A stretch of 52,013 nucleotides of DNA from Nitriliruptoraceae bacterium (GCA_035267125.1 DATFMD010000380.1:1-52013); one strand, 5' to 3'. Positions 16,572-51,296 are shown, counted from the first letter of the stretch. The notes: generated by a model not told the origin, from the letters alone. Program-made: numbers and translations.

Positions 16572-16588
16572 CCCTCCAGGTGCACCAA

Positions 16589-16619: not shown

Positions 16620-16777
16620 GGCTTGTTCCCCCACGGTGACCACGGGACGGTCGTGCACTAGGGTGGGCCGCGCCCGCCCGAGCTCTTCGCGGGTTCGACG
16701 CAGGCACCCGATGCGGGTCCGGTACCGGGCCCGGGCGGCACCGCTGGACTGTTGACACGACTGGACGAGGAGAGCAC

Positions 16778-18867: not shown

Positions 18868-18873
18868 GACGCC

Positions 18874-21594: not shown

Positions 21595-21628
21595 GACGAC
21601 CATGGCAGGGACGCTCGGCAAGGGACGT

Positions 21629-22240
21629 TCAGCCGAGCAGGGGCCCGCGTGGACGCGGCAGTTCGCGCTCGATCACCGCAGCGAGGTTGTCCAGTGTGGC
21701 CAGCGTCAGGCCCCACACGGTGCGGTGTTGGTGGCGGATGCCGGCGAAGGGTCCGACGAGCCGATGGAAGTGCCGCACGGAGTTGGTCCGGTCGAACAGG
21801 TGGGTCAGCGGGATCCAGACCACGGCGGCGACTTCGGCGGGCTCCGGGGTGGTGGCCGGACGTCCATCGACGACGTGGACGAACGTGGCGACACGACCGG
21901 GACGCCGGGGTGAGCGCAGGTCGTCGAGTCTTCCGACGGCCGTCGGCAGGTCCACCCCGACCTCCTCGAGGGTCTCGCGTCGGGCCGTGGCCGCCAGGTC
22001 GACGTCCTCGGGATCGCGCTTGCCGCCCGGCAGGGCCATCTGTCCGGACCAGCGGTCGCCGGCCCGACGAACGCGCTCGATGAACAGCACGTCGGCCTGC
22101 CCGTTGCCGGCCGTGGCCAGCACGAGGGCCGTCGCAGCCGTCCAGGCCTGGTCGAGTGGGTCGACGTCGGGTTCGTGGGCGGCCACGGCAGCCACGACGT
22201 CGTCGACGGTGAGGTGGTCAGCAGCGGAGGCGTCGGTCAT
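21629..22240 (-). CDS. NUDIX hydrolase (CoA pyrophosphatase-like)
   Basis: WSGQMALPGGKRDPED...ARRETLEEVG Nudix box and VWGLT. Confidence 0.88.
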   Translation of the reverse strand: MTDASAADHLTVDDVVAAVAAHEPDVDPLDQAWTAATALVLATAGNGQADVLFIERVRRAGDRWSGQMALPGGKRDPEDVDLAATARRETLEEVGVDLPTAVGRLDDLRSPRRPGRVATFVHVVDGRPATTPEPAEVAAVVWIPLTHLFDRTNSVRHFHRLVGPFAGIRHQHRTVWGLTLATLDNLAAVIERELPRPRGPLLG

Positions 22241-22246
22241 GGGGCA

Positions 22247-22252
22247 ATCGTA
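22247..22252 (-). promoter_or_regulatory. -10 box TACGAT 6 nt upstream of the NUDIX ATG (likely leaderless transcript)
   Basis: Minus strand reads TACGAT-TGCCCC-ATG with no RBS. Confidence 0.45.
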
Positions 22253-22277
22253 GAACCCTGACGACACCGGCCTCGGG

Positions 22278-22574
22278 TCAGTCCACGTCGGTCGGGGAGC
22301 CCTGGCGCTGCGCGTCGGCCAGTTCCGCCACCCGAGCCAGGTTGATGGCCCAGCCGACGCCGAACGTCCGACCTGTGAGCAGGCGGGGGTCGTCCGGCGC
22401 CCACCACGACGCCTTGAGACCGGCCATCGTCGGGGGACGGAAGTCGTAGGGAACGATTCCCCCCAATTCGCCGTGCCAGTCGCGCTCGTCCGCCGGCTTG
22501 CCCAGTTCGCTGGCCACGGCTGCGACGACCAGTCCCAATCCGATCCAGGTCAGCAGTCTTCGCAAGGTCTTCAT
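22278..22574 (-). CDS. Small membrane-anchored protein (DUF5808-like C-terminus)
   Basis: GGAGG RBS, N-terminal TM, WHG..GIVPYDFRPPT, WWAPDDPRLL...FGVGWAINL. Confidence 0.8.
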   Translation of the reverse strand: MKTLRRLLTWIGLGLVVAAVASELGKPADERDWHGELGGIVPYDFRPPTMAGLKASWWAPDDPRLLTGRTFGVGWAINLARVAELADAQRQGSPTDVD

Positions 22575-22671
22575 GTTCATCCCTCCAGTGGTCGTGGGCG
22601 CGGATGCAACCACACCACCTTTGCGCGGGCAACGGTCGCGCCGCGCCGAGGGACCCGCCTGGCACGGCGGG

Positions 22672-24921
22672 TCAGAAGCACGCCGACCCCGTCGAGACAG
22701 TGCCGTCCGGGCAGGTCGCACCGGTCCAGGTGAAGACCCGGGCGGTGTAGGCGCCCGTCGCATCGGCCCCCAACATGTTGGCGCGGTACAGGATGGCGCC
22801 GTTGTCCCAATCGTCGTACGTGATGAAGTCGGCATTGCGCAGGTCGGCGTTGCGCAGGTCGGCAGCGGTGAGGTCGGCCCCGGAGAGGTTCGCCCCCGCG
22901 AAGATGACACCCTCCATGCGTGCGTTCGCGGCGACTGCGTTCAGGAGTTTGGCGCCACTCAGGTCAGTCCTGCGGGCATACGCGCTCGACAGGTCTGCGT
23001 TCGACAGGTCAGCCCCGATCATGCTGGCACCATCGAGGCTGGTTCGGACCATCGTTGCATCGACGAAGTCTGCGCCGTAGGCGTTGGCCTCCAGGAGGTA
23101 GGCGTCTGTGAGGTCAGCCCGCGACAAGTTGCTTCGCGACAGGTCGGTCAGCGCGAAGCTGGTCCCCACCAGGGTGGTGTCGGTGAGGTCGGCGAAGCGC
23201 AACACGGCGTTGACCACGTAGGCGCCGCTGAGGTCGCTGCCCCCAAGGTCTGCGGACTCCATCCGGACCCGTTCCATGTCAGCACCGACCAGCGTCGTGT
23301 CTGAGAAGGTGGTGGATGCCAGGTTGATGTACGAGATGTCGGCGTTGGTCAGGTTGGCACCGACCAGGCTGGCGCCACCGAGATTCGAGCCGACGAGATG
23401 CCCCCCGAGGATGGCGTTGGTCAGGTCAGCGCCGCCGAGGTTCGTCCGGGCGAAGTTGGACTTCGTCGCGACAACGCCGACCAGGCTCGCGCTTGCGAGA
23501 GTCGCATCGGCCAACGTGGCCCCGGTCAACGTGGCGCCGTCGAGCGTCGCGATGACCAGGATCGCACGCGACAGGTTCGCCCGAGCCAGGTTGGCGCCGC
23601 TGAGGTCGACCCCGGCAAGGTTGCGGTCGGCGAGCTGGCACCCTTCGAGGTCGGCACCCGGTGCGATCAGCGGGTTGCCGGTGCGGCAGTCAACGCCGTT
23701 GTACAGGTCGGGTCGCTGTCCTCGCGTCACCTCCAGATCGTTGCCGATCGTGTCGCCGTCAATGTCAGGGTCGCACGCGTCGCCGACTCGATCCCGGTCC
23801 AGGTCGTCCTGGGCGGGGTTGGGGACGAGGGGGCAGTTGTCCCGGTCGTCGGTCAGACCGTCGTTGTCGTCATCGTCGTCCGTGATGTCAGCTTCGCCGT
23901 CACCGTCGGTGTCGGTCAGGCAGTCATCGGGCGAGGTTGATCCGGTGCCCAGGGTGAAGGTGCCGGCGGGGCAGTCGGTGGGGCCGGTTGCGCCGGTGGT
24001 GTCGACGTAGGTGCCCGGTGGGGCGGCGGTGCATTCGGTGGCGCCGGGGAGGTCCGAGAACGTGCCCACGGCACAGTCGGTGGCCGTGGTGGCCCCGGTG
24101 GTGGCGACATGGGTGCCCGCTGGTGCCGGCGTGCAGGCCACGCTCGCTGGCTGGTCCGCGAAGGTGCCGGCGGGGCAGTCGGTGGGGCCGGTTGCGCCGG
24201 TGGTGTCGACGTAGGTGCCGACGGGGGCGGCGGTGCATTCGGTGGCACGTTCGGTGTTGGACCAGGTGCCGATGGGGCAGTCGGTGGGGCCGGTTGCGCC
24301 GGTGGTGTCGACGTAGGTGCCCGGTGGGGCGGCGGTGCATTCGGTGGCGCCGGGGAGGTCCGAGAACGTGCCGATCGGGCACTCTGCCTGAGTGGTCGAA
24401 TCGGCAATCGGCACGAAATGGCCCGGTTGGGCAGGGCTGCAGGTGAACGTCCCGAACGAGCCAGCCGGGCATGACACGGCACGGGTCGGGTCGAGCGGGT
24501 GGGCATCGTCGTCGTCGGCAACCCCGTCGTCGTCGTCGTCGTCATCGCAGGCGTTGCCCGCGCTGTCGCCGTCGGTGTCGACCTGGTCGGGGTTCGGAAC
24601 TGCTGGGCAGTTGTCCGTGATGTCCACGATGCCGTCGAGATCGAGGTCGACCAGGACCGGCGTGCAATCCTCCCCGAACTCGTGGCCGGGCATGCCCGGG
24701 ACTGGCGTGCCGACCTCGCCATCCAGTTCGTGGCGGCCGTGTCCTCGCTCGGCCCCTCGAGCATTCATCGCTTCCATGACCCAGCCGCCACCGCCACCGT
24801 CGAAGTGGCACCATTGCAGGAGATCAGGTGGCGACGCCCCCGCTGTGGCGGCCTGGGCCACGACCAGCATCACGACGCTGATGGCGGCCACCATCGTCCG
24901 AACGAATCCTCGGGTGCTCAT
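22672..24921 (-). CDS. Secreted multidomain protein: TSP type-3 repeats, Cys-rich ephrin-receptor-like (GCC2/GCC3) repeats, pentapeptide repeats
   Basis: AGGAGG plus ATG 24921. Signal peptide MSTRGFVRTMVAAISVVMLVVAQAATAGA, DNCPAVPNPDQVDTDGD..GNACD (two blocks), CP.GT(F/Y)/CTAAPPGTY repeats, ~300 aa of A(D/N)LxG pentapeptides. Confidence 0.9.
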   Translation of the reverse strand: MSTRGFVRTMVAAISVVMLVVAQAATAGASPPDLLQWCHFDGGGGGWVMEAMNARGAERGHGRHELDGEVGTPVPGMPGHEFGEDCTPVLVDLDLDGIVDITDNCPAVPNPDQVDTDGDSAGNACDDDDDDDGVADDDDAHPLDPTRAVSCPAGSFGTFTCSPAQPGHFVPIADSTTQAECPIGTFSDLPGATECTAAPPGTYVDTTGATGPTDCPIGTWSNTERATECTAAPVGTYVDTTGATGPTDCPAGTFADQPASVACTPAPAGTHVATTGATTATDCAVGTFSDLPGATECTAAPPGTYVDTTGATGPTDCPAGTFTLGTGSTSPDDCLTDTDGDGEADITDDDDDNDGLTDDRDNCPLVPNPAQDDLDRDRVGDACDPDIDGDTIGNDLEVTRGQRPDLYNGVDCRTGNPLIAPGADLEGCQLADRNLAGVDLSGANLARANLSRAILVIATLDGATLTGATLADATLASASLVGVVATKSNFARTNLGGADLTNAILGGHLVGSNLGGASLVGANLTNADISYINLASTTFSDTTLVGADMERVRMESADLGGSDLSGAYVVNAVLRFADLTDTTLVGTSFALTDLSRSNLSRADLTDAYLLEANAYGADFVDATMVRTSLDGASMIGADLSNADLSSAYARRTDLSGAKLLNAVAANARMEGVIFAGANLSGADLTAADLRNADLRNADFITYDDWDNGAILYRANMLGADATGAYTARVFTWTGATCPDGTVSTGSACF
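23968..24372 (-). repeat. 102-bp-period intragenic tandem repeat (34-aa Cys-rich units)
   Basis: 23968-24066 is identical to 24274-24372 (offset 306). A near-identical copy starts at 24172. Confidence 0.88.
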
Positions 24922-25014
24922 CGGTGTCCTCCTGGACCCATCTTCCGAGGTCCGTCTGGTGACACGACCTCGCGCGGCGGGAGCGTAGAGACCATACGCC
25001 AGTCCTGAAGCCTG

Positions 25015-25038
25015 GATGTACGTCATTTGGCGTACATC
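25015..25038. promoter_or_regulatory. Near-palindromic operator-like site 1
   Basis: GATGTACGTCA-TT-TGGCGTACATC has 11-bp arms with one mismatch and lies in the divergent intergenic region. Confidence 0.65.
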
Positions 25039-25102
25039 GCGACGCGCACCGAGGTGCACGCTCGGACCTTCAGTTCGCGGGCTGCGACGACCGCCAGTGC
25101 CG

Positions 25103-25122
25103 TGTACGTCATTTGACGGATG
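25103..25122. promoter_or_regulatory. Operator-like site 2 (direct repeat of site 1)
   Basis: TGTACGTCATTTGACGGATG shares TGTACGTCATTTG(G/A)CG with site 1, 86 bp apart. Confidence 0.65.
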
Positions 25123-25180
25123 CCCGTGTCGAAGGGGGCGGGCATCCTCATGGCAACGCTCGGGAGAAGGAACGAATGGC

Positions 25181-28100
25181 GTGAGTGCAGGGGTGTCGAC
25201 ACTGGTGGGACGGGCAGCGCGATGGTCGTTGGCCGTGCTTGCCGTGTGCCTGCTCCTGCCGCTGTTGCCCCCGGCAGTGCAGCAGGCCGCGACGGCTTCA
25301 TCCTGGACGACGGCAGGGCCGCCAGCCCCTGACGTGACTGCCCCGACTCCCGCCGAGCTTGCCTCGATCAGCCGCAGTGCACGAGCGTTCTGGAGCACTG
25401 CCCTGCCCAGGCTCGCATCCAACGACCAGCGCCTCGTCGCTGCGTCGACCACGGCTGCAACCGCCGAAGTCGAGCCACTGGATGATGCCACCCTGGCCGG
25501 GGCCCTGGACGAGGCCGTCGCCGCTTGGTCGTCGGCCGGCCACGACGTGCCAGCCGTGTCCGCACGGGTTGGCGACCTGCCCGGCAATGACCTGGGACGC
25601 ACCGATGGCACGACCATCACCATCGACCCCACGGCAGCCGGCCACGGCTGGGGTGGGGACGGCATGGATCTTGCCACCGTCGTGCGCCACGAACTGGGCC
25701 ACGTGCTCGGCTACGACCACGGCGCGGGGGTCATGGCGACGACTCTGGCGCCGGGAGCCAGCCACCACGACCTCCCTGCGGCCGAACACGCCAGTGCGGG
25801 TGGCGCCGGGGGCACCGCCGGCGACCTTGACGAGTCCCATGACCATGACGAGACTGAAGCTCCCGTCGAGGTTGAGGGTGATGGTGACGGCCATGGGGCC
25901 GCCGAAGGCACCGAGGAACCCGCCACGGGACAGGAGGCGGTCGCCGTGCCAGCCGTGGATGGCGACGACGAGCCGATCGATGGCGAGACACCCGATGACG
26001 ATGGTGCGGCGCCTGCCGATCCGTCGACCGATGGCGACGCGGGGACGGATGGCGATCCGTCGACCGATGGCGACGCGGGGACGGATGGGGGCGCGTCTGC
26101 CGATGGTGCGCAGGACGTTCCGCTCCCAGACGGGGCGGAAGTGGACGTCGAGCCGGCCGAGCTCGGTGATGGGGCACCGGCCGCTGGAGATGACGAGGTC
26201 GGCCAGGCAACTCGTCCGACGGCGTGGGCCATGGAGGACGGCGTCGCCGTGGCACGATTGGGATCCGGGGGTGCCCTGGACCATGTCCTGCGGATCGAGG
26301 GGACGCGCCTGGCACTGGTCAGCGGGGATGGGACCATGGACCTCGCCCCCGAGTCGGTGTCCCACCGCGTCGTCGGTGGCGACGGAGACGACGTGGTGCG
26401 CGTCGACGCGTCCGTGGTCGCGGCCGGAATCGTGGTCCAGGTCGACGGTGGCCTGGGGCACGACCGACTTGTGGGTCCGACGGGTGACGTGGACTGGACG
26501 ATCTCCGGGTCGGGCGCCGGACGGTTCGCCACGGTCGGCTTCGACGGGTTCGAGGACCTGTCCGGGGCAGCCGACAACCGTGACACGTTCTTCTTCGAAG
26601 CTGGCGGGACGCTGGCCGGAGTCGTCGACGGGGGCGTCGACGGCCACGACACCCTGGTGGTGGCCAGTGGCAGCTTCGGCCGAGTCGTCTACGCCGTCAC
26701 CGGGCCGACCAGCGGGACCGTGCGTCGCGACGACGACCTGGTCACCTACACCGGCCTCGAACCGACGGTCGACACCACCGGTGGCCCCAAGGAGTTCGAC
26801 GGCACCGGGATCAGCGAGACCATCACCATCCGTACCCAGGGCACCAGCCTGTACGTGGACATCGGCATCGGCGAAGACCTCGAACTGACGAACCCGGCAG
26901 CCGTGACCAGCCTGACGGTTCGTGCCGGCCTCGGCAACAACACGATCCGGATCGAACTTCTCCCAGCCACGTTTGCCGGGGCGCTGACGATCGATGGCGG
27001 CATCGGCGACGACACCGTCGTGTTCGCCTCCAACCTCGCCCTGGCTGGCTCGGCCGTGACCGTGGACGCCGAAGCGATCGTCGTCGAGTCAGGCGTGACC
27101 ATCGACACCCGTTCGCGCGACGCCACCGGCGCCACGGTCGGCGACTCCGGTGCCATCACCCTGCGCGGCGAGCACGTCACCCTCACCGGTGCATCCATCC
27201 AGGCAGGAGCCGACCCTGCATCCGGCCACGCGGCAGGGGACGTCACCATCGCGGCTGCTCGCACGGCCGTGCTGGAGGTGACCGGCTTCCTGCCGATCGA
27301 CCCCAGCGTCAACACCGCCAGTGTCGACATCGCGAACTCCACCGTCAACGGTGGCACGGTCAGCATCACGGCCGCTGCCGAGGACGGGACCTTCTGGGGC
27401 ACTGTCGGCGACGTCGGCGACACCTGGTTGGCAAGCCTGGAGGACCTCATCGGGCAGGTTCCCGGGCTCAGCCTGAGCGCGCTGACCGGCATCGGCGGCC
27501 AGATCTCGGTTCGCTACGCCACGGCCACGGTCAACCTCACCGATGCCACGATCACGGCCGCCGGTGACGCCGAAGTGGGAGCCACGGCCTCCACCGATGC
27601 CTCCATCCACACCGTGTCGTTCAACGGGGTGGCGGCCAGTGGCGCGTTCGCGATCTCGATCGCCTACGGGCAGGCCTGGTCCACGGCCACGACCACCATC
27701 GAACGCTCGTCGATCATCGCAGTCGGAACGGTCACGGTGTACTCGTCCGCAGCGACGAACGCGTTCGTGAAGGCGCGGACGGCAGCCAACTCCGGCCCGA
27801 CCTCGTCGGGGGACGCCCGAGCCATCGCCATCGCCATCGCCCACACCAAGGAAGTCGCCCACACCATCGTGTCGGCCGGGTCCGAGGTGAGGTCACTCGA
27901 ACACAGCGTTGCGATCACGGCCGACGGCGAGGTGACCAACTTCGCGTGGGCGCAACCAAACGTCTCCGACAGCGGGACCCTGGCGATCGCCTTCGCGTTC
28001 GACTTCGACATCGCCGACGTCAAGACCGTCGTCGACGGCCGGGTCGATGCCGCCGGCGGGATGGACGGCACCTTCAGCGCCAACAGCGATGTCGACTACA

Positions 28101-46100: not shown

Positions 46101-48118
46101 TCGACGTCCAGAAGGCCATCAACGCCGCAGATCCGTTGGCGCCCACCTCCACCGAGGACGCCGACGCAGTGGCGGTGGTCCTGCCGACGGGGACACAGGT
46201 CGTGTGGACCTACCTCGTGCGCAACGACGCGGACGTGGCGTTGGACTCGATCGTGCTGATCGACGATGCCGGGACACCGTCGGATCCGACGGACGACTTT
46301 GTACCCAGGCCGGTCGTGGACGTGTCCGGCTTCAACGTGGGCGACCTGGATCGGGACGGTCGCCTGGACCCGGGCGAGACCTGGCTGTTCACGTCCGAGG
46401 GCGTGTGGATGCACACCGCCAGCGGCGCGTACTGCAACCGGGTCATGGTGACGGCACGGGATGGCACCGCCGTGCTGACGGGCTCCGATCCCAACTGCCA
46501 CGACGTGCCGCCGCCCCCGCCGCCGCCCGTGGTGGATGTCGAGAAGGCGGTCAACGCGGTGGATCCGCTGGCGCCGACGGTGCTCGAGGATGCTGACTCG
46601 GCGACCGCCGCCCCCGTGCTGGTCGTGGGGGACGTGGTGACCTTCACCTACGTGGTGACCAACCCCGGGACAGTGGCTGTTGCCGTGTCGCTGGTCGACG
46701 ACAACGCCACCCCGGATCCCGCCGACGACTTCATGCCCGTCCTGGTGTCGGGCGACACCGACGGTGACGGGTTGCTGGATCCCGGGGAGGTGTGGCTGTT
46801 CGTCGCCACGGCGACGGTGCAGGAGGGGCTGCACACCAACCTGGCCACGGTCACCGCGATGGACCCCACGACCGGGGCCGAGGCCGACGACCGCGACCCC
46901 GCGAACTACGTGGGTCAGGTCCCGCCGCCTCCCACCTCCATCACCATCGACAAGCGCCTGGTGGTCGTGGCCAGCGGAGCGGAGTTCGATGCCGCAGGCC
47001 CGGGGCTGCGTCTCCCGGTCGGCACGGTGGTGCGCTGGACCTACGCGGTCAGCCTGACCGAGGGTGGCCCGGTGTCCGAGGTGACGGTGGTGGACGACAA
47101 CGGGACGCCGGACGACCTGACCGACGACTTCCTGGCGGTGTACGTGTCCGGCGACACCGACGGTGACGGCCTGCTGGACCCGGGTGAGGTGTGGGTGTTC
47201 CGCAGCGGCGAACACGTCGTCACTCGGGGCGTCTATCGCAACGTGGCCGAGGTGTCGGCGTCCGTCGACGGCTGGCGGGTCACCGCGCGTGACGCCGCGC
47301 AGCACGAAGGCACCGTCGCCGGCATTGACGTCGAAAAGGCGTTGGACCCCGCCGACTGGCGCAACCCCACCGAGGCCGAGGACGCCGACACCGGCCCCGG
47401 ACCGGCCCTGCTGCCCGGCACCGCCATCACCTGGAGTTACCTGGTCACGAACACGGGCACGGTGGAGTTGGTGATCATCGACATCATCGACGACAACGGC
47501 ACTCCCGACGACCCCACCGATGACCGTCGTCCGGTGTACGTCTCGGGAGACACCGACGGCGACGGCCGACTCGACCCGGGGGAAACGTGGCGCTTCACGC
47601 TGGACGGCGTGGTCGGGATTGGCGACTACGTGAACGAGGTCACGGTGATCGCGGTCGAGGCAGTGCCGGGCCCCGTCGCCCACGACCCCGTCACCGACAG
47701 CGACCGCAACCACCACCGCGGGGTCGACGAGGGCGAGACCGGCCAGCAGGGGCTGACCCCGGGGTTCTGGAAGAACAATGCCCGACACCACGATGCCAAC
47801 CAGTGGACATTCCTGGCGCCCGAGCAGGCCCTGGACACACTGTTCGTCGTTCCCGCGAGTCTCGGACTCGGCTCGGTCACCCTGGTCGATTCGCTCGACC
47901 TGGACGGTGGTGTGGCGGCCGCCCTGCTGCGCCACGCGGTGGCCGCCGTCCTCAACGCCCTGCATCCGGACATCGCCTATCCGATGACGGTCAGCGAGAT
48001 CGTCGCTGAAGTGAACGCCGCGCTCGCCTCGGGCGATCGTGGGCAGATCACCGCGCTCAAGGATCGCCTCGACGGGTTCAACAACCTCGGCGCACCGGTC
48101 AGCCAACAGCCTGGATGA
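25181..48118 (+). CDS. Giant (~7,645 aa) secreted repetitive adhesin-like protein with N-terminal metzincin motif, beta-solenoid region, RTX repeats and DUF11-like repeats
   Basis: Uninterrupted 23-kb ORF with normal codon bias. GTG 25181 after AAGGA begins a Sec-type signal (GRAARWSLAVLAVCLLLPLLPPAVQQAATA). HELGHVLGYDH, many GGxGxD nonapeptides at ~41.4-45.3 kb, five C-terminal repeats, GLTPGFWKN domain. Start could also be 25193. Confidence 0.92.
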   Translation: MSAGVSTLVGRAARWSLAVLAVCLLLPLLPPAVQQAATASSWTTAGPPAPDVTAPTPAELASISRSARAFWSTALPRLASNDQRLVAASTTAATAEVEPLDDATLAGALDEAVAAWSSAGHDVPAVSARVGDLPGNDLGRTDGTTITIDPTAAGHGWGGDGMDLATVVRHELGHVLGYDHGAGVMATTLAPGASHHDLPAAEHASAGGAGGTAGDLDESHDHDETEAPVEVEGDGDGHGAAEGTEEPATGQEAVAVPAVDGDDEPIDGETPDDDGAAPADPSTDGDAGTDGDPSTDGDAGTDGGASADGAQDVPLPDGAEVDVEPAELGDGAPAAGDDEVGQATRPTAWAMEDGVAVARLGSGGALDHVLRIEGTRLALVSGDGTMDLAPESVSHRVVGGDGDDVVRVDASVVAAGIVVQVDGGLGHDRLVGPTGDVDWTISGSGAGRFATVGFDGFEDLSGAADNRDTFFFEAGGTLAGVVDGGVDGHDTLVVASGSFGRVVYAVTGPTSGTVRRDDDLVTYTGLEPTVDTTGGPKEFDGTGISETITIRTQGTSLYVDIGIGEDLELTNPAAVTSLTVRAGLGNNTIRIELLPATFAGALTIDGGIGDDTVVFASNLALAGSAVTVDAEAIVVESGVTIDTRSRDATGATVGDSGAITLRGEHVTLTGASIQAGADPASGHAAGDVTIAAARTAVLEVTGFLPIDPSVNTASVDIANSTVNGGTVSITAAAEDGTFWGTVGDVGDTWLASLEDLIGQVPGLSLSALTGIGGQISVRYATATVNLTDATITAAGDAEVGATASTDASIHTVSFNGVAASGAFAISIAYGQAWSTATTTIERSSIIAVGTVTVYSSAATNAFVKARTAANSGPTSSGDARAIAIAIAHTKEVAHTIVSAGSEVRSLEHSVAITADGEVTNFAWAQPNVSDSGTLAIAFAFDFDIADVKTVVDGRVDAAGGMDGTFSANSDVDYTANTIRILGHGFADGEAVGYSPGSVAVALGDVEAPPISGLDEPEITWYVQYVDADTVRLARAPTIALDYVPPTGPTSTHRLSTLASLAIGSVTTANDTLAFASPHGFSTGDVVTYIGSAANAGGTLGPAIGGMTTGTVYVVEVVGATTIRLREVGGGLVDLTTGTGGWTHELVREVAPLTFDPGTAVDALRNSLDFATPHGLSNGTAVVYRTDAARSTTVPLGPVRFTTGLMVVNDTTLTVAGDHVASIQVGKAVTLAVTGGTVMAQVVSATHDAATGLTTVVVDLPILAGVASIAEARFDNDFMVVVPDAPIGDLEDGGLYFVVVVDVDTIRLVASQAAVALAAPVDLAMADDLDGTGLGDDHALSTSGCTAGVCILATLSATNAINAASEISDPSSPAASIAGGLTGGFGNVDEMIGAIAAIGQLATKKSATVPTGSSQTFQLAGAVGINYLVHTVDVIVGCDHLVTPGCTSHAQITSASGIEIAASIEQAAQVAVTSGATRCDTGTNGSCTAPAGSGSGTTIGVAIAVGLGLFTNTARVTVKDGASLDAHDGIVIDSAVAYGFLLANPLSAINPLDYLRNTGPDGWAYFNDGTLGFSSNLFNTWVMTSASESDVSGGVSFALNSYTNTATATIASGARINQSTLPTYTSGDQGVDVSAGITMNLIGIVGVGGLSLSISGGIGSYESVRDAAKQGAGRGGQALEGIKSLVNPFGAEGGKAGIGASILVEVFSNTARAAIESGAAIRAGPGGLAVTSTTDIFTFALAQAGGKGSTLGLSGAVTVADLTNTTTAIIGSGARVTSGGTLSVDAHDTLDRIAIAGAVSAAKQIGAGVSIGINLVDRSTVAAIGGWDPVTATRIDPSLPAPASPVVITVADDVTIAATSDGSIVAVVLGGAIAGVNAGDTNPQSTSSQPRGFDLSAAVTVSVGVNIVEQNSVLAYVDDVDVTTGGAIAVGATTMPELLAIVVALAVKIDKPSGSTARSGGFSVDLSIAGAVAVNEVDDDVRAFASDTTLRGADVSVAAIHTSSVDADAGGVAIMAFIGSKPGTLSAAVGVSVAINTIVAHVTATLDGAAVHATGAVAVTASAAPTIQALTIAGAINVVVGGGSGSASSGATLALTGGGAGSGNVVVSTVKARVQDATVNAGGDVTVTADDTSTITADAGGVAIAVTVVPGSGGSGADFLVGIGVAVNRIGRGDTDTGNQVSAIVRGSTVDAGGRVRVAATSSATIDALTFGITVDIDVSSSSGLGVDGSLGGSFNTIHESRTLATIDQSSTVTADQHVEVHATDTSTIEADAGGFSLALAIGDGSGLDASVGVGVAINFIGGTGDGDRGAVTALIDASTVTGGTGVSVVATSTQVIDALTLGGALNGQIGGGSGVELAGGGAGAKNTIRVDVLATIRGSSTAGGPRAVVTATTGSVRVEASDAARITADAGGFAIVLKIGDGNGVNAAVGVAVAINDIANTVRAVVSRATVTADSVVVRAHVPVTATVDSLVLGGAGGLHVGTGNSNSLDLSAGVAVAINTIANVVAAIVEQGASVTARTGAVAVTAADRAMIVADAGGFALTIAVKPAGGNGAAVSAGVSVANNTITTDVLATVRSGSVTTGTGSSTGTDVFVRATSTASVAALSVSVGGSVSVTVGSGVGGAVGVAYAGATNRLAGTVRAEITSLAGGARSSVTADGDIEVEATDTATITATYIVISAAVSIGVGKGGSGAGAVSITVAGNTIDRTVEGLVGSATLDAGGAVAIRATTSRSVTVVSTSVGVTVALQISKAPISLGITVLSVETINRVGGATRARIAATAIVTSRGTGIIVAARDTTTMDASVDAVGVSLALLAATAVLVTATNTADGELASTVAGTLTATTGAVDVSATSMIDIVRTRALSVAVAIGIAGAGTGPKITATIGGSTIARIDGGASVTAHGAVTVAANQTAMLEVIANGGSGSLIAADILEATGTVERDVRAIIARGGSVSAASLAVTAVADDLDAKVSSELGNVGVAGSGIALTVTATVSSDVEARVGDETGATGAGASVIDVTGAFLIAATSKAATATADVRGGSGSVLIAVTLMSATAEVTGTTTARLGSLGAGSFDVGSLQVVADEQDRLADADLLIVSVGLLGSGLGGEDGNLPVKARVDGDITAEVAPGVAVTVDGAVIVDATGRADADARADGGAGCLGFCVAIIDVEASNDLDVRAGIAANAHLSAGSLSITAATALQIDGAVIVGQGAIIGGGGRAQADATASGAVTAVVGDQADLTLAGGPVLVEAKSDVRGFADVLIATGNLLVGGREAKATTDLTHTTEARIGERATVVVRGGPDDDAADVTIRATSTVEGDAKAQSYGGAILGDGGAARATTTVTPVVLATIGASSRLDVDGDVTLEAVFANTGSAPSAEVVAIDPDAETVTVDTGLRLRDGDIVTFGNGTLPTSLVSGRQYQVLVVAPGVVQLGSMLDGSSIDATRDTITFGGEHMFATGDRVRVVARTLGGFDPATNVDDAADSIRLDVRTALRTGDAVVYRNADGVAVGGLVDGTTYWVVVDPTDSQRIRLAASRADAMAAVPVVIDLTATTESGQRDTFIGVLDGIDPATTYVVSVVDDRTIKLLTGSEAPSLAFTGADVAADTITIVGHGFLDGQHVTYTGPGGAIEFSWDLVDAVTTVQTIEGRSVPIPKVSSTGDVAVDVDLDTIYVGPDHGLTTGTVVRYHAPTGGPAIVGLVNGQDYRVIVVTRPGATVSAEVQLAAAGSVTAVRFSSDFFNGAAWDGDTIRRVDGQSWAAFGFATGQVITIAGSLGNDGDWTISSVSGATLVLTTQNVILDTVFADDVIEVTSGVIAIDRLRTSVTWTSDASNGLAYDNDIVRRADGQNWSAFGFAAGQRVFVVGSGANSDTYVIRRLDGDVMVLDMKNRVVDTVVSEQVTISEIGTYSITRLPRLDIGGLVDGVTYYVRRLDDDEFQLAATPGGAPLALDGSGRTLTHFIGTTGIDLGPGSGRHAVVLDLDTSTGTFDVLGPEGEDLAEILGTGGDGQSTAIALGGSGALGVSASEPRTTITVSPWVVACVGDQEATTEACDGSATGAARTTVVAAGAITVAAESTADVYTNVDVRSGGIVQVGVARSKGVLEPVTLAIVGTRSRLEGANVSVVATMTATLKVTTTAAGGGVVAVSDADASGTIDFLTLAAFDSDTDVTARDGIVGHATTTVSGTVEATSFAAGGAFWASADANFDNISEFTPAGLKVVGQSLVLVASGARLSAETVSLVARVPHLSAASRAGAESFAVVVFLAVTKAYAVANTFVDVGAHVVVESGVTRQTLVEGRRGVDLRALADSVSIVRRAGRLAVGLIPPQGAFAGPCDSTGDCKRALIFYTRGTIWVGTGVDVGANVHIVAGARDAAASALAHPQTGGAAYPALALFVESHVGTTTDKPESWKVWTQEGYFDDHLSSLRTTSDAILDGDVTILGGRRGAPTLVVDEAGIIRAANGVQIRCDQAIAGVCAAGQLRDATVGTLVDPDDNGSYRVVVVNEGGANVLVAADSLIANGGRATLPWPLWTFADTLAGVTIVDHSDVRLVIEGIDVVAPATARPTVWLVTERDNADPVEPTTPYRLQFDLRRTAGEPFVDVQKWGNAILEVAGTITNPTGWTHLLAVLSDIEGGTGWVVTNVAHIEAVAGAIGTVTRLQVKLVQSIDRGRDVAATGDDVLRTTQLHARAAGDVVLRLWAADRVPMSHPLNGPFVVWIDRVESRAGDVDLDLLDSVREHGSATPGAVRVIVFDSQAGIPGTSGAPVLDHVYTDHFLPDAGGAVGLDPGAYATSGTCTATDTTDCIPSIYRFQQRGTFPSRTTATWSGTGLAWDAYDPGVRVSRDATVPGGTPVAGLVAAGHLDVVHAGPDSPLLVIVGWVDLADAGSGFVTVDTDGQVHITETSGDLRVGRIRSRLARVVLAARTGGILDADPSDAADATDPSDVIGVGITLHALAGSIGTEADFLEIDLIGDAPLSRLNADATGQVLVTETAGDLRVGLVVSTQASGAGTTDVALSARAGSILDGLGDDRADVVAIRIDLGAFGGGIGSSAFDLGVNSSSTATGSLYLYATGPIRVTETAGAMRLLAAISTQGLVRLTIPDTNQTRAPPTAAGDNSTPEDLLLLTQGSAIIFQGDVRTIATDPGTTPAPTPNRSGIWAALDISLWIGDDLLAPAGSWIVAGGTIFIHGDVDRETASPTAIDPDPHGTPAGTNLDPGGTVMVFAGTLGGVFDACWTGIACGGANPTDLVRIFGNTETDWVTFDATLLGAVTRVYGSDDLSATNEPAGDGDDVVLVDRLRSTPHRLTIDGQQGSDFTEVRTTGSQGDRRSYVVNVLDTGAADDGIDRLLVRGTDLSDDVFLLRGASAIAGEVSDRPAFVALLHDDVADARCGVDADPACTRPGEVQRINYDAGLDDLTGGVEVRGLAGDDTFASDDTSAPVRLDGGVGDDTFQVGQLYGSRRDLAAVVAVDRFPTTATTRGWLSRGNSRAMLAAGGAGDDVFQVYANQAPLRLEGDAGNDLFTVRAFALAETTGDCDDLASTTCAVVWRDEAGRVAMPVLVGAQVQYVVNEVVEIDGGAGFDKTVAIATEFGDHLVVDETGVYGAGLTVSVTTIEALEVDAMEGDDRIDVVGTAAGLGTRVIGGLGSDIVGVAGDVVDDVVSQKSFPKRAHVLTVLRGPLAVEGGETGADRSLWIALLLPGERNGPLFAIAAQPTEREQVDLLGVYDDGRPVGASGELGATTVTGFGMAGPLTFASTAFGESTTLPGGISFAATLVAGGVVTTDPARTTLEVVSLLLGPGADALLVTGSVAPAVDLSTGVVAAHGGLTVVHAGGGGDLVTVTGGGGPASPLVLYGDTSQDGRWYGGSSAALSFVDLGSKPFVGVVGSAPTFVVGQAVAFTAPGNDTIDAAATGTPGAAIGVIAFGGPGDDTLVGSVAADVLAGGSGDDRIEGRAGDDHVHGDSGIDVDVRSRLLTVPTVNSSAQPNADPLVAGRDHLLGGAGHDLVFGDHGSVSQDVEEATVGPDGWRRGLVLPQRIETTRRVVSLATVQPLNGAADRIEGGAGNDVVLAGGAGDTVSGGSGNDLVFGDFGRVDRTTAFVDEALPLLPLNLPVAMHPITWTSIDTGSDRNGADDLLRADGGDDVVIGGQGGDRITGGDGDDDIVGGHNVAGGQDGDDVVDAGAGNDVVAGDNANLLRTGTTVGPRMRVLVGSAIFAVETGEPLVTGEFQADPRGASVRHVTLFDHVLGADPATFGDDVLAGGADDDVLFGQLGDDWLQGDGATIDDDGIVVLDVVRTGVSVEDWAGPGRDGDDWIEGNGGNDTIFGNLGQDDLVGDNSSLFSLVTRAQREPVGHDTIFGGGGTRLVRNDSAGCGCDTVKHATDADVILGDNGDIFRLVGTFGTASGDFLRFNHDLSGPDRWIIPRAHRLLDYTQGGAATDLGRSDLLHGERGDDTLHGMTGDDVVFGEAGDDDLYGGTGNDRLYGGSGVDGILGDDGKILTSRNGRNEPLHRLATPNAEVLLSVPGPFIGTIEYRTGALTKAVDLAAWESGGADVIYGGIGDDFLHGGAGDDAISGAEATRDFYTDVAQDAALLGYDPADPLGHDPVTRMLAAYDPDDPRTRIDGFLLAFDPWIVDEATGLPIVTVSGWVPRDDGRDRIFGDNGHDWLVGGTNYDRLFGGLGDDLLDADDNHDTNGGRNDGPETDATPDTSSWFAQGDFAFGGGGLDVLIANTAADRLFDWTGEFNSFIVPFSPFGSPTVNRRFSPATRDFLRDLGATSGADTATLAEPYDEVAVVEPGDDLWGDQHGGPRDPQPGNLPGVMRDDVGGPELSLLIDPCDITLLLVDKAINALQPLVPTGAEDADTAPGRRLAEGDVVVWTYLVSHQGTGAVQVTGIVDDNGTPDDPSDDFVPVLVSGDTDGDGLLDPGETWLYTSAGVVTYRAVPGEYANWVRVTGVDTATGHALDASDPNHHFVPDDPPPAIDVQKAINAADPLAPTSTEDADAVAVVLPTGTQVVWTYLVRNDADVALDSIVLIDDAGTPSDPTDDFVPRPVVDVSGFNVGDLDRDGRLDPGETWLFTSEGVWMHTASGAYCNRVMVTARDGTAVLTGSDPNCHDVPPPPPPPVVDVEKAVNAVDPLAPTVLEDADSATAAPVLVVGDVVTFTYVVTNPGTVAVAVSLVDDNATPDPADDFMPVLVSGDTDGDGLLDPGEVWLFVATATVQEGLHTNLATVTAMDPTTGAEADDRDPANYVGQVPPPPTSITIDKRLVVVASGAEFDAAGPGLRLPVGTVVRWTYAVSLTEGGPVSEVTVVDDNGTPDDLTDDFLAVYVSGDTDGDGLLDPGEVWVFRSGEHVVTRGVYRNVAEVSASVDGWRVTARDAAQHEGTVAGIDVEKALDPADWRNPTEAEDADTGPGPALLPGTAITWSYLVTNTGTVELVIIDIIDDNGTPDDPTDDRRPVYVSGDTDGDGRLDPGETWRFTLDGVVGIGDYVNEVTVIAVEAVPGPVAHDPVTDSDRNHHRGVDEGETGQQGLTPGFWKNNARHHDANQWTFLAPEQALDTLFVVPASLGLGSVTLVDSLDLDGGVAAALLRHAVAAVLNALHPDIAYPMTVSEIVAEVNAALASGDRGQITALKDRLDGFNNLGAPVSQQPG
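26018..26089 (+). repeat. 36-bp tandem duplication (DPSTDGDAGTDG x2) in acidic linker
   Basis: GATCCGTCGACCGATGGCGACGCGGGGACGGATGG occurs at 26018 and 26054. Confidence 0.88.
45686..47720 (+). repeat. Five ~130-145-aa DUF11/DUF7507-like repeats in the giant protein
   Basis: Each unit reads K(A/R)..., (W/F)(T/S)YxV, DDxxTP..D, GDxDxDGxLDPGExW, then (Y/H)xN near the end. Units start near 45686, 46100, 46532, 46940 and 47324. Confidence 0.85.
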
Positions 48119-48235
48119 TCCTGATCGTCGTGACCCCGGCACGTCGATTTCGCCAAGTCGTGGAGCTGCCACTAGCGTGCGTCCTCGTCGGGCCGGTCAG
48201 CCCGCGATGAACCGCTCCCGAGGAGGCCTGCCAGC

Positions 48236-51127
48236 GTGCGTGCGCATGCCCCACGGGATCGCGGGTCGGACACGTCACCTTTCGTGGGCCGCGACGACGC
48301 AACGGACCAACTTGCGCGTGCCCTGGATCGGGCGCATGCCGGTCGGTTCTCGTCCGTGTTCGTCTCCGGTCCGGGCGGGATGGGCAAGTCGCGCCTGGTC
48401 GGGCACTTCCTCGACGGCCGGGACCGACGCATCGGCACGCTTGTCTCGGGCGCATGCCTGGACGAAGGTGGGGACCTCACGCCGTTCGGCGCGGTCGAGC
48501 AGGTCGTGCGCCAACTCGAGGACCAGGCCCTGTCCCTGCCCGATGCCGACGTGCCCGCCGAGCACCGCATCCGCGCCATCGTCGAGGCGATCCGGCTGGC
48601 GGCGCGGTCGAAGCCGGTCGTCGTCATCGTGCTCGAGGACCTGCACTGGGCCGGCGACACGACCCTCGAGTTCATTCGGTTCGCAGCCCATTCGCTGGCC
48701 CGCGAGCCGGTGTTGTTCGTCGGGACCCATCGAGATGGTCGCCACCTGCACCCGCCGTTGCGCCGGGTCCTGACCTCGTTGGCCAGGGACCCGGGCTGCA
48801 CCCGACTCGACCTCGGTCCGTTGGACACCAGCGCGCAACGGCAACTGGTGGCTGCCCGGGCCGGCGGCCGCGTGGACGACGAGATCGTGGACGGACTGGT
48901 CGAACGGTGCGGCGGGATCACCCTGTTCGTCGAGGAGTTGGCGCAGGCCATTGGTTCTGGCGGCAGGCCGGCCATTCCACAACGCCTGCGCGACGTCTTC
49001 GTCGATCGCCTCGGCGAACTCGGCATGGGCGCCCGTGAACTGCTCGACTGGGCGGCGGTCTGTGGACAGCAGTTCCCCCACGAACTGCTCGCGCTGGTCG
49101 CGGAGCTTCCGGTGCCGACACTGGAGAAGCGGATCGACGAGTTGCTGGATGTCGGCATCCTCGTCGTGTCCGACCACGGTCGCGGGTACCGGTTCCGCCA
49201 TGCGCTCCTGCACGAGACCGTTCGGGACGAGCTTCGTCCGATGACGCTGCGCCGCCTCCATGGCGGGTGCGCACGCGTGTTGCAACGTCGACCCGACCTG
49301 ACGCCGGGAGATGCGCTGCCCAGCGCCGACCTCGCGCGTCGCTGGAGCGTCGCTCGGCAGGCGGGGCCGGCGCTGCGTGCCTATGTGCTGGCCACGTCCG
49401 AGGCAACTGATCGTGGTGCCCACGGTGAGGCCGCACGGCTGGCAGCCATCGCCTGCGAGTGGTTCCGGCGGCTGCCGGCCCACGAGCCCGGTGAAGGCGA
49501 CTTCGATGAAGTCGACGTGCTGCTGCGTGCGGCGGACTGCGCCGACCGTGCCGGCGACCACCACGAGGCCATCCGGCGTGGCCGCCAGGCGCTCGCCGTC
49601 GCCGCGTCCGACGACGACTCCCGGGCGGAGTCGTGGATCCTGGTGATCCGGTCGTCGTACCTCGCAGGCGACATCGAGGGCGCGATCGAGGCCGCCGGGG
49701 GTGCCGTTGCGGACCTCCCCGCCGATGGGTCGCCAGGCCTTCGCGCACGGCTGCTGGCGGTCTCGGCAGCATTCCTGCCGACCGAACCGAGCGAGGCCGG
49801 CCCACACCTGACCGACGAGGCGGTGCGCCTCGCTCGCCGGTCGGGCGACCCGAGCGCCCTGTGTGACGCCCTGTGTTCCCATGGTCTCGCACTGGCCCGA
49901 TTCGGTCGTCCACGCGAGGCGCGTACGGCCCTGGCCGAAGCAGAGCGTCATGCGACCGGGCTTTCGGACCCACGTGCGATCCTGCGCCCCACCGTCTTCC
50001 GGATGCTGGTCATGCACGGGAGCGGAGCCACCCACGCCGTGTGTGACATTGGCGGCGACGGGTTTCGCCGGGCGGACGACCTGGGCGTGGCCCGCGGGGT
50101 CGGCCGGGAGATCCGCACGATCCTCGCGGACTGCCTGGTGGCGGTCGGTCGATGGGACGAAGCCGAGCAGGTCGTGTCGGATGGACTTGCCTGGGGCGAC
50201 GACGGTCTTGCCGGCACACTCCTGCAGCTGACCCGTGCCGACCTCGCCACCCTCTCAGGTCGATTCAGCCAGGCGGAACGTGACCTCGCAGCGGTGAGCG
50301 AGCGCGTGCCGCGCGGCCACTTCCGTCTTTCCCTGGCCGCGTCGGAGTTGGCCTGGTGGCGTGGTGATCCCATGGCCAGCCGCGACCATGCGGCCGACGG
50401 ACTCGCACGGGCCGGCCTCCTGGCCGATCCGGACGAACTCGGACGATTGACCCTGTCGTTGGTTCGGGCGTCTCGGTCCGTCGCTCCCGTCGACGTGGGG
50501 ATCCCGCCCCCGGAGGACGTGATGGACACCCTGTCCCGCCGGGCGGGGCATCCGGTCGTCGACGCGTGGTTGGCGACGGCCGCTGCGACCCTGGCCGCCG
50601 ACGGGACGGACGCAGTCGACGCCTGGGAGGGCGCGCGTACGGCGTGGCGGGGCCTGGACCGACCACCGATGGTCGCGCTGGCGACCTGGCACGCGGGGAT
50701 GGCTCACCTGGGTGTCGGTGATCGTGGCACCGCCGGCATCCGGCTCAGCGAGGCGCAGGCGATGGCGGAGGAGATGGGGGCTGTGCCGCTCGCCGTCGAG
50801 GCGCGCGCAGCCCGGTCCACGGCCGGCCTGGGTCCAGCACCGGACTCTTCACCGCCGAACCCACGCAAGCCACCGGAGCCCAGCGTCGCCGGTCTGTGGC
50901 CGGACGCCGCGGACACCGTTCCCGACCATTTCGACCTCACCGACCGAGAAGGGGAGGTCCTGGCGCTGGTGGCCCGCGGCTGGACCAACAAGCGGATCGG
51001 TGAGGAGCTCGTGATCAGCCCGCGCACCGTCAGTACGCACGTTTCACGCATTCTCGACAAGTTGGGGGTCGCGACTCGCGGTGAGGCGGTCGCGCTCCGC
51101 CACGGCTCGACCGTCGGCACCGACTGA
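48236..51127 (+). CDS. Large ATP-binding LuxR-family (LAL-type, AAA ATPase + TPR-like + LuxR HTH) transcriptional regulator
   Basis: AGGAGG RBS. PFVGRD, Walker A GPGGMGKS, Walker B VLEDLHWA, FRHALL, C-terminal LTDREGEVLALVARGWTNKRIGEELVISPRTVSTHVSRILDKLGV. Confidence 0.92.
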   Translation: MRAHAPRDRGSDTSPFVGRDDATDQLARALDRAHAGRFSSVFVSGPGGMGKSRLVGHFLDGRDRRIGTLVSGACLDEGGDLTPFGAVEQVVRQLEDQALSLPDADVPAEHRIRAIVEAIRLAARSKPVVVIVLEDLHWAGDTTLEFIRFAAHSLAREPVLFVGTHRDGRHLHPPLRRVLTSLARDPGCTRLDLGPLDTSAQRQLVAARAGGRVDDEIVDGLVERCGGITLFVEELAQAIGSGGRPAIPQRLRDVFVDRLGELGMGARELLDWAAVCGQQFPHELLALVAELPVPTLEKRIDELLDVGILVVSDHGRGYRFRHALLHETVRDELRPMTLRRLHGGCARVLQRRPDLTPGDALPSADLARRWSVARQAGPALRAYVLATSEATDRGAHGEAARLAAIACEWFRRLPAHEPGEGDFDEVDVLLRAADCADRAGDHHEAIRRGRQALAVAASDDDSRAESWILVIRSSYLAGDIEGAIEAAGGAVADLPADGSPGLRARLLAVSAAFLPTEPSEAGPHLTDEAVRLARRSGDPSALCDALCSHGLALARFGRPREARTALAEAERHATGLSDPRAILRPTVFRMLVMHGSGATHAVCDIGGDGFRRADDLGVARGVGREIRTILADCLVAVGRWDEAEQVVSDGLAWGDDGLAGTLLQLTRADLATLSGRFSQAERDLAAVSERVPRGHFRLSLAASELAWWRGDPMASRDHAADGLARAGLLADPDELGRLTLSLVRASRSVAPVDVGIPPPEDVMDTLSRRAGHPVVDAWLATAAATLAADGTDAVDAWEGARTAWRGLDRPPMVALATWHAGMAHLGVGDRGTAGIRLSEAQAMAEEMGAVPLAVEARAARSTAGLGPAPDSSPPNPRKPPEPSVAGLWPDAADTVPDHFDLTDREGEVLALVARGWTNKRIGEELVISPRTVSTHVSRILDKLGVATRGEAVALRHGSTVGTD

Positions 51128-51296
51128 CGACTGCTGCCCGTGTGGCAGCCGGCCGACCCGGCCGCGGCGGTCGCACGGTGGGCACGGGCCTTCGTTGCAG
51201 TCGGCGTGGACGCGCCACATGAGCGAGTCCGCAACTGTGGCCGCGGTGGCAAGTATCGTCGCTCGCATCAGTCCGTCGACGCTGCCAGGAGTCCCG

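What the first reader, a model, noticed from the sequence alone, without database searches (positions are those of the whole stretch)
22672..51127. Candidate undescribed system: divergent secreted repeat protein + 23-kb giant protein + dedicated ATP-dependent LuxR regulator
Three genes fill 28.5 kb. Two Sec-signal, Ca-motif-rich and Cys-rich extracellular proteins share a 259-bp divergent region containing a duplicated palindromic motif, and a LAL-type regulator follows the giant gene directly. No T1SS, sortase or glycosyltransferase gene is adjacent. The inference is a signal-inducible surface or matrix module (adhesion, biofilm or host interaction) switched by the regulator. LAL regulators are mostly known from secondary-metabolite and catabolic clusters.
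Basis: partly seen in the sequence, partly recalled or inferred. Interest (0 to 1): 0.82.

Follow-up and report, generated by a model that had tools for sequence, protein, structure and literature searches.

The report
LuxR-ATPase switch beside giant secreted protein
A salt-marsh-type actinobacterium carries an inserted 30-kb block in which a large ATP-binding regulator likely switches on two secreted repeat proteins through a shared DNA palindrome; the larger one (7,645 residues) belongs to a giant filament-like family that Gram-negative bacteria appear to export through dedicated machinery but that here has an ordinary signal peptide, and in relatives the regulator and palindrome recur while these three genes are not kept together.

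Summary
The three genes and the twin palindrome are real; only the small protein is Cys-rich (giant 0.4% Cys). The trio is not a conserved system. It sits in a lineage-specific insertion (pspC and hydantoinase lie 0.1-6.4 kb apart in 5 of 5 congeners, 29.7 kb here). In G001 homologues of all three genes lie on three contigs, and no other giant locus examined has the regulator or box. What is conserved is regulator plus box. A 7-2-7 palindrome (TACGTCA-N2-TGACGTA) was found 8 times in 4 genomes that carry this narrow LAL clade; 7 of 8 have a -10-like hexamer 22-23 nt downstream, as for Actinoplanes MalT, and 6 of 8 precede signal-peptide proteins. The giant is a LktA-repeat/beta-helix/RTX protein. 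Its alphaproteobacterial relatives are LEPR-XLL giants with their own HlyD/M50/SapC/SecA-like export genes. Those genes were not found here; 10 of 10 readable actinobacterial N-termini have a signal peptide and 9 of 10 a metzincin domain moved to the front. Verdict: a LAL regulon with interchangeable secreted cargo, one cargo being a likely Sec-rerouted giant adhesin. Binding, expression, export and function are untested.

The parts
21595..51284 (.). Lineage-specific insertion (about 29.7 kb) between pspC and a hydantoinase gene; also holds a NUDIX gene and a DUF5808 gene
   Evidence: pspC-to-hydantoinase gap about 0.10, 0.15, 0.20, 1.5 and 6.4 kb in G003, G004, G002, G005, G001; NUDIX, DUF5808
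22672..24921 (-). 749-aa secreted repeat protein: signal-like N-terminus, TSP_3 x3, Ephrin_rec_like Cys repeats x4, pentapeptide repeats; no anchor
   Evidence: 67% orthologue in G001 with the box at the same distance
24991..24996 (-). -10-like hexamer TATGGT, 22 nt from box 1 (predicted promoter of the small gene)
25019..25034 (.). Box 1, TACGTCA-TT-TGGCGTA (7-2-7 palindrome); a second -10-like hexamer lies 22 nt away on the other side (25057-25062)
25105..25120 (.). Box 2, TACGTCA-TT-TGACGGA; resembles the promoter in front of the G001 LAL orthologue's gene run
25143..25148 (+). -10-like hexamer CATCCT, 22 nt from box 2 (predicted promoter of the giant gene)
25181..48118 (+). Giant gene, 7,645 aa
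25181..25297 (+). Predicted Sec signal peptide (basic n-region, most hydrophobic segment of the protein, AxA-like end); no LEPR-XLL motif, no twin Arg
   Evidence: sequence
25343..25789 (+). Metzincin-like domain, HELGHVLGYDH (residues 170-180) plus Met-turn-like GVM; preceding helices may be a propeptide
28361..28561 (+). Repeat shared with a giant phage baseplate-wedge family (phrog_2885); second block at 35597-36052
31460..31612 (+). Best of 10 LktA_tand_53 repeat stretches in residues 1-2500 (155 bits, cut-off 50); two more stretches in 2501-5000 score below cut-off
39824..41440 (+). Family-conserved core, predicted beta-helix (mean pLDDT 68.9; best match EtpA adhesin Z 14.1, rmsd 5.4, 344 aligned)
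41486..45343 (+). RTX region, 16 GGxGxD nonapeptides (residues 5436-6721)
45668..47710 (+). Five DUF7507-type repeats, each with a DxDxDGxLDPGE loop
47738..48115 (+). Unnamed C-terminal domain shared with P0002 and P0007; no LPXTG or membrane anchor seen
48236..51127 (+). LAL regulator: AAA_16 with Walker A GPGGMGKS and Walker B VLEDLHW, TPR-like middle, GerE HTH with helix SPRTVSTH (50936-51091)

Best explanation
The block is an inserted unit in which the LAL protein likely binds the two 7-2-7 boxes and activates the two divergent promoters, and the genes it controls are interchangeable secreted proteins rather than fixed partners. Shown: boxes, spacing, domain content, insertion, re-assortment in relatives. 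Inferred steps: (1) an unknown ligand sensed by the TPR region lets the ATPase oligomerise, as in MalT (recalled); (2) the GerE heads bind each box centred near -43, in place of a -35 element, and recruit RNA polymerase; (3) box 2 would also drive the LAL gene by read-through, giving positive feedback; (4) both products leave by Sec; (5) the giant folds outside, with Ca2+ in its RTX and DxDxDG loops, into a long beta-helical filament acting in attachment or matrix; (6) its N-terminal metzincin would cleave itself or nearby proteins. The giant belongs to the family called LEPR-XLL giants in Gram-negative bacteria and is re-routed here by a front module of signal peptide plus metzincin.
For: A matrix trained only on the two window boxes scores 20.4 and 17.6 bits within 1.5 kb of LAL-clade genes in G001 and G119 (2 of 4 other clade genes; flanks of the G003 gene are split over contigs). 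Background: 0 sites at 18 or more and 2 at 16 or more in 3.5 Mb of G000; best 13.6 in 34 other class LAL loci; best 16.0 in 80 distant LAL loci. G001 has the same order, box > cargo > LAL, with different cargo and a look-alike promoter. 8 boxes in 4 genomes, all carrying the clade; listed candidates in G002 and G004, which lack it, reach 14.8 and 5.6. A YAnnnT hexamer lies 22 nt downstream in 6 of 8 and 23 nt in 1 of 8; background 1.07% per position. This fits the Actinoplanes MalT motif, 34.4 nt from the start site (PMC7567727). NarL, a related HTH, binds 7-2-7 sites such as TACCCCTAAAGGGGTA (PMC4549865). Only this protein has SPRTV among 16 LuxR-like HTH hits in G000, and 4 of 24 exact GTDB box hits lie near response regulators with SPRT[VI]NKH. 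No terminator-like site between giant and LAL. For the giant. Export operon beside 3 of 3 alphaproteobacterial plasmid relatives viewed but not found in G000. 10 of 10 actinobacterial N-termini signal-like, 9 of 10 with HExxHxxGxxH..M there, whereas 25 of 38 database homologues carry that domain at the C-terminus.
Against: No binding, transcript or secretion data. 2 of 4 other clade genes (G001 C2:212961; G003) have no box nearby. One G119 box faces a different LuxR-type ATPase (helix APGTVRTH), and the G001 HYR box lies near a BTAD-nSTAND1 regulator and has no -10 hexamer. G078 has a 1-mismatch box without a clade match. The G001 and G119 LAL genes next to boxes are frameshifted in the assemblies. 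2 of 8 boxes precede proteins without a signal-like start. The pattern was designed after seeing two of the sites, and related genomes are not independent. The giant has no visible wall anchor, its Pfam M10 score is below cut-off (19.2 vs 24), and Foldseek gave no match at E 0.001 or better for either model. G000 is 89.6% complete. Signal peptides rest on hydropathy only.
Confidence: 0.62

Rival explanations
1. The box is a real activator site but is read by another LuxR-family protein; the LAL is a passenger of the same insertion.
For: G000 has 15 other LuxR-like HTH hits. One G119 box faces another LuxR-type ATPase. Two clade genes lack a nearby box. Proteobacterial response regulators lie near the same palindrome, so several protein types may read it.
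Against: Boxes sit within 1.5 kb of clade genes in two other genomes against a near-zero background. In G000 the only strong boxes are in the same insertion as the LAL.
Confidence: 0.18
2. One reading: a dedicated three-part machine in which the two secreted proteins work together under their own regulator.
For: Tight packing, one box per gene, and all three present in related strains from other runs.
Against: Homologues are on three contigs in G001. The small-gene orthologue was found in only 2 of 143 class genomes (two further weak repeat hits) and the giant family in 6 of 143. Other giants have different neighbours, such as a beta-helix lipoprotein.
Confidence: 0.08
3. Regulation is as proposed, but the giant acts on other cells or polymers (contact with partner or prey, capsule or matrix digestion) rather than as a plain adhesin.
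For: Intact metzincin motif in 9 of 9 N-terminal copies. Beta-helix matches include glycan lyases and tailspikes at Z 10-12.7. Chlorobium Cag_665, with LEPRxLL and LktA-like repeats, is reported to be transferred to a partner cell (10.64898/2026.03.19.712371).
Against: No toxin or glycan-enzyme family hit in the giant. The top fold match is an adhesin. No delivery machinery was found in G000. I did not compare Cag_665 by sequence.
Confidence: 0.15

Closest known systems
MalT (ACSP50_3915) and the maltose-regulated large genomic region of Actinoplanes sp. SE50/110 (PMC7567727; passages read)
   Same: MalT-like LuxR regulator inside the region it activates; palindrome over the -35 position, 3' end 34.4 nt from the start site; targets poorly annotated and re-ordered between relatives.
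   Different: Motif is TCATCC-N5-GGATGA there and TACGTCA-N2-TGACGTA here; 17 promoters there, 1-3 boxes per genome here; targets here are mostly secreted repeat proteins; ligand unknown.
LEPR-XLL / LktA-repeat giant proteins of Gram-negative bacteria, e.g. Chlorobium chlorochromatii Cag_665 (10.64898/2026.03.19.712371; abstract and passages) and WP_114295156.1, WP_205793450.1
   Same: LktA-like repeats and long beta-helix; 36-41% identity in the core to the two alphaproteobacterial proteins, which share the RTX region.
   Different: No LEPR-XLL motif; signal peptide instead; metzincin at the N-terminus; HlyD/M50/SapC/SecA-like operon not found; monoderm host.
RTX adhesins exported by type I secretion (review PMC3034196; passages)
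   Same: Gly/Asp nonapeptide Ca-binding repeats, very large size.
   Different: No TolC or HlyD found; beta-helix stalk rather than Ig repeats (Ig stalks per abstract listing). The review noted RTX proteins in six actinobacterial genomes lacking T1SS parts; a signal peptide offers a route.
Snapalysin / MMP-type metzincins (4hx3, 1eak, karilysin)
   Same: HExxHxxGxxH, Met-turn-like residue, fold Z 9.9 (rmsd 2.9, 96 aligned) and Z 9.3.
   Different: About 105-residue minimal domain fused to a 7,600-residue protein; activity untested.

Membership tests
LAL (large ATP-binding LuxR) regulators | N-terminal Walker A/B ATPase | tested here: met
   AAA_16 83.8 bits, cut-off 32.6; motifs
LAL (large ATP-binding LuxR) regulators | C-terminal LuxR/GerE HTH on a protein of about 900 aa or more | tested here: met
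   GerE 59.3 bits at 901-952 of 963 aa
LAL (large ATP-binding LuxR) regulators | ATP- and ligand-dependent DNA binding and activation | not testable with these tools
   needs EMSA and transcription assays
Actinoplanes MalT/MRLGR regulon | Palindrome overlapping the -35 position | tested here: met
   -10-like hexamer at 22-23 nt in 7 of 8 boxes; start sites inferred, not mapped
Actinoplanes MalT/MRLGR regulon | Motif TCATCC-N5-GGATGA | tested here: not met
   different palindrome
T1SS-exported RTX adhesins | RTX nonapeptide repeats in the C-terminal part | tested here: met
   PF00353 103.5 bits, 8 stretches; 16 GGxGxD
T1SS-exported RTX adhesins | T1SS in the genome and no cleavable N-terminal signal | tested here: not met
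   no OEP in 5 of 5 genomes, no TIGR01843 in G000 (G000 89.6% complete); signal-like N-terminus
LEPR-XLL giant proteins | N-terminal LEPR-XLL motif | tested here: not met
   no NCBIfam hit; no motif in 10 actinobacterial N-termini; present in Ruegeria homologue P0008
LEPR-XLL giant proteins | LktA_tand_53 repeats and homologous beta-helix/RTX body | tested here: met
LEPR-XLL giant proteins | Linked HlyD/M50/SapC/SecA-like export genes | tested here: not met
   present; in G000 only the SecA-like query hit, at unlinked loci
Metzincin proteases (M10-like) | HExxHxxGxxH plus Met-turn and metzincin fold | tested here: met
Metzincin proteases (M10-like) | Pfam Peptidase_M10 above cut-off | tested here: not met
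   19.2 vs 24 bits
Metzincin proteases (M10-like) | Zinc-dependent proteolysis | not testable with these tools
   needs assay
Sortase-anchored Gram-positive adhesins | C-terminal LPXTG, membrane segment, basic tail | tested here: not met
   none in either protein, although G000 has three sortases elsewhere

The most novel reading that the evidence does not exclude
Actinomycetota have captured a Gram-negative giant-protein family of 7,000-13,000 residues and converted it from dedicated envelope-spanning export to Sec export, using a shared front cassette of signal peptide plus self-processing metzincin. A narrow LAL clade acts as a mobile on-switch for whichever secreted surface protein is placed behind its box, making a costly 23-kb filament inducible.
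Probability: 0.3. Interest if true: 0.72.

Novelty: new variant of a known kind. Interest (0 to 1): 0.52.

Why it matters
It supplies a specific, testable operator and promoter geometry for an uncharacterised LAL clade whose predicted outputs are secreted proteins rather than metabolite pathways. It also offers an answer to a puzzle noted in the RTX review (PMC3034196): how actinobacteria without T1SS could export RTX-repeat proteins. If proteins of 7,600-13,000 residues really pass through Sec, that tests the size limit of that pathway. The specific three-gene trio matters little, because it is a local arrangement.

Tried and rejected
Three-gene conservation: rejected. General LAL motif: the box is not enriched near 80 distant LAL loci (3 weak hits at 11 or more vs 1 in the reversed control; generic TAC..GTA palindromes in 4 loci vs 6), so it is clade-specific. 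Most of the 24 exact GTDB hits showed no link to a LuxR protein (18 of 24 had neither an SPRT helix nor identity to the G001 sites). The sigma-70 consensus scan found no promoter in the gap, as expected if the box replaces -35. Direction of transfer: the tree is a quick, unfinished search with 2 rows left out for low coverage; actinobacterial and Gram-negative rows are mixed (at least 2 changes each forced by starred branches), the window protein pairs with P0002 rather than with its own-genome paralogues, and no clade test was run, so no donor is claimed. Expression: no RNA holder listed; this is no evidence either way. Foldseek gave nothing at E 0.001 or better for either model. The profile search of protein representatives and the protein atlas gave no result, so deep homologues of the LAL clade and unnamed domains were not surveyed that way. 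Gene neighbourhoods of P0002 and P0044, the closest outside homologues, could not be seen. No complex prediction was run, since nothing but adjacency suggests binding. Literature: no paper held any of five exact spellings of the box; LEPR-XLL gave 2 listings; searches listed no paper on signal-peptide-bearing members in Actinomycetota; the library lacks most subscription papers, and no supplements were read (those of the Chlorobium preprint may list further homologues). Earlier-finding look-ups by place, sequence and one word set were blank. Quinolone-resistance and effector HMM hits of the small protein are far below cut-off and reflect pentapeptide repeats only.

Full report
Host and layout. 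The window is a whole 52,013-nt contig of a 3.5-Mb, 69% GC genome, 89.6% complete. The nearest named homologue of a flanking ABC permease is from Salsipaludibacter albus, 79% identical, class Nitriliruptoria, Actinomycetota. The genome has three sortases and no TolC or HlyD match. The three genes are at 22672-24921 (-), 25181-48118 (+) and 48236-51127 (+). Contigs of four public DNA runs from three studies cover the block (29-30 of 30 bins each) and some bridge the gene junctions; X1 may be the source sample. Database proteins 99.7% identical to the giant and the LAL exist and may come from the same sample.

Observation. The palindrome is real and unique in the genome. The small protein has TSP_3, Ephrin_rec_like and pentapeptide repeats. 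The giant is not Cys-rich (0.4%).

The trio is not conserved. pspC and the hydantoinase gene lie 0.1-6.4 kb apart in 5 of 5 congeners but 29.7 kb apart here, so the block is an insertion at a variable site. The giant family was found in 6 of 143 class genomes and 5 of 401 phylum genomes, counts including G000. The small-gene orthologue was found only in G000 and G001; two other genomes gave weak repeat hits. In G001 the small orthologue (67%) faces a glycoside-hydrolase-like gene (by eye), the LAL orthologue (57%) is on another contig, and a giant homologue is on a third. Giants of G003 (three on one contig, frames of 7,448, 11,695 and 13,159 aa), G026 (two) and G433 (two, each with one flank) show no clade LAL, small-gene homologue or box in the fetched flanks. 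G000 has further giant paralogues on at least six contigs. Class tallies include G040, G044 and G045, which are marked unpublished.

Regulator and box travel together. The LAL belongs to a narrow clade: only three database proteins exceed 40% identity over most of their length. Its helix reads SPRTV in G000, both G001 copies, G119, P0044 and P0046, and GHRTV in G003, whereas distant LALs mostly read KTAS. Box 1 is conserved 97-98 nt before the small gene in G001. In G001 a variant box stands before two small genes followed by the LAL orthologue, the same order as here with other cargo, and resembles box 2 and its flank. In G119, another genus, a box overlaps the stop of the clade LAL. A matrix built from the two window sites alone scores these 20.4 and 17.6 bits. 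Background is 0 sites at 18 or more and 2 at 16 or more in 3.5 Mb, 13.6 at best in 34 other class LAL loci (two from unpublished G044 and G045) and 16.0 in 80 metagenome LAL loci. Two of four other clade genes have no nearby box. A further pattern search of five genomes that I chose gave two more strong sites, in G003 and G119, both before proteins with signal-like starts; a 16.7-bit G003 site lacks the hexamer; G002 and G004, without the clade, reached 14.8 and 5.6. In all, 8 boxes in 4 genomes; 6 have YAnnnT 22 nt downstream, 1 at 23 nt, 1 none (background 1.07%). It places the inferred start about 34-35 nt from the box, as measured for Actinoplanes MalT (34.4 nt; PMC7567727, passages). The 7-2-7 shape with TAC..GTA ends matches NarL sites (PMC4549865, passages). 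Of 24 exact GTDB hits, 2 are the G001 sites and 4 lie near response regulators with SPRT[VI]NKH, one confirmed as receiver plus GerE beside a hybrid kinase. Against: one G119 box faces another LuxR-type ATPase, one G001 box lies near a BTAD-nSTAND1 protein, and G078 has a 1-mismatch site without a clade match. LAL features and known roles were read in passages of PMC9628970.

The giant. Order: signal-like peptide; metzincin-like domain; acidic linker; LktA_tand_53 repeats (155 bits) interleaved with repeats shared with phage baseplate family phrog_2885; a conserved core; 16 RTX nonapeptides; five DUF7507 repeats with DxDxDG loops; an unnamed end domain; no anchor. The front domain folds (pLDDT 77.6, 11 sequences) like snapalysin (Z 9.9, rmsd 2.9, 96 aligned) and MMPs. 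The core folds (pLDDT 68.9, 9 sequences) as a beta-helix, best match EtpA Z 14.1, rmsd 5.4, 344 aligned, tied with other beta-helices, so fold alone shows no function. Homologues (38, 30-60% identity) come from Proteobacteria, Desulfofustis, Limnocylindrales and Actinomycetota. On plasmids, 8 records match; two are annotated LEPR-XLL proteins. In 3 of 3 alphaproteobacterial loci viewed the gene is followed by a HlyD/RND-type adaptor, an M50/site-2-protease or PqqD-annotated gene and, in two, a SecA-like or DEAD-box gene, with SapC beside two; the Rhodococcus plasmid locus has none listed. SapC and OEP were not found in 5 of 5 giant-bearing actinobacterial genomes, and of five operon queries only the SecA-like one hit G000, at unlinked loci. 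All 10 readable actinobacterial N-termini have a basic then hydrophobic segment and no LEPR motif; 9 carry HExxHxxGxxH..M 134-231 residues behind it. In 25 of 38 database homologues that domain is C-terminal, though most of those records lack their N-terminus. The RTX review noted actinobacterial RTX proteins without T1SS (PMC3034196, passages). Chlorobium Cag_665, with LEPRxLL and LktA-like repeats, is the nearest studied type (10.64898/2026.03.19.712371, abstract and passages; not compared by sequence). A giant-gene survey mentions actinobacterial giants of other architecture (10.1101/2023.11.21.568195, passages). The quick tree mixes the two groups and gives no direction.

Verdict. A LAL activator with a predicted clade-specific operator and swappable secreted targets; one target is a giant LktA/RTX protein likely re-routed to Sec. 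It works like the Actinoplanes MalT regulon but has another motif. The giant is kin to LEPR-XLL and RTX proteins but fails their export criteria. Function (adhesion or matrix most likely), ligand and expression remain inferred.

Noticed in passing
G003:C45:45424-47103 (L018:5424-7103), G000:C240 about 1915-3429, G026:C2 about 51246-52751: A lipoprotein-like gene with a right-handed beta-helix domain lies just behind other giant genes (36% identity G000 vs G003; weak in G026); it may be a truer partner of the giants than the genes in this window.
   Followed up: partly
L080, L081, L087, L099, L085: The same palindrome occurs in Proteobacteria near a hybrid sensor kinase plus LuxR response regulator (helix SPRT[VI]NKH) and formamidase genes; possibly the operator of an amide/urea-use two-component system.
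   Followed up: partly
G003:C45:22878-121952: Three giant genes (7,448, 11,695, 13,159-aa frames) fill about 99 kb on one strand; the last ends in a membrane segment with a basic tail.
   Followed up: partly
G000:C453 (L240:2322-3821): Paralogue of the small protein's TSP_3 plus Ephrin_rec_like part with other ends and no box.
   Followed up: partly
L071:17480-17824 and 17027-17302 (G001): Two small genes (115 and 92 aa) without Pfam match sit between the box and the LAL orthologue.
   Followed up: partly
L210:7660-8151 (G119) and G001:C2:1051196-1051648: Small genes that look universal-stress-like by eye lie downstream of two clade LAL genes; no Pfam match for the G119 one.
   Followed up: no
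window 21595-51284 and the same site in G001, G003, G005: The region around pspC is an insertion hot spot: G001 holds about 6.4 kb of other genes there, G005 1.5 kb.
   Followed up: partly
window 28361-28561 and 35597-36052: Repeats shared with a 4,179-position phage baseplate-wedge family (phrog_2885) inside a bacterial surface protein.
   Followed up: no
L259 (NZ_CP123586.1) and L256 (NZ_CP110618.1): The DUF7507 array and end domain of the window giant are 40-46% identical to those of an alphaproteobacterial and a Rhodococcus plasmid protein, suggesting module exchange across phyla.
   Followed up: partly
window 305-5250 and 14802-21242: Ordinary molybdopterin dehydrogenase (xanthine/CO dehydrogenase-like) cluster and peptide ABC transporter operon.
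   Followed up: no
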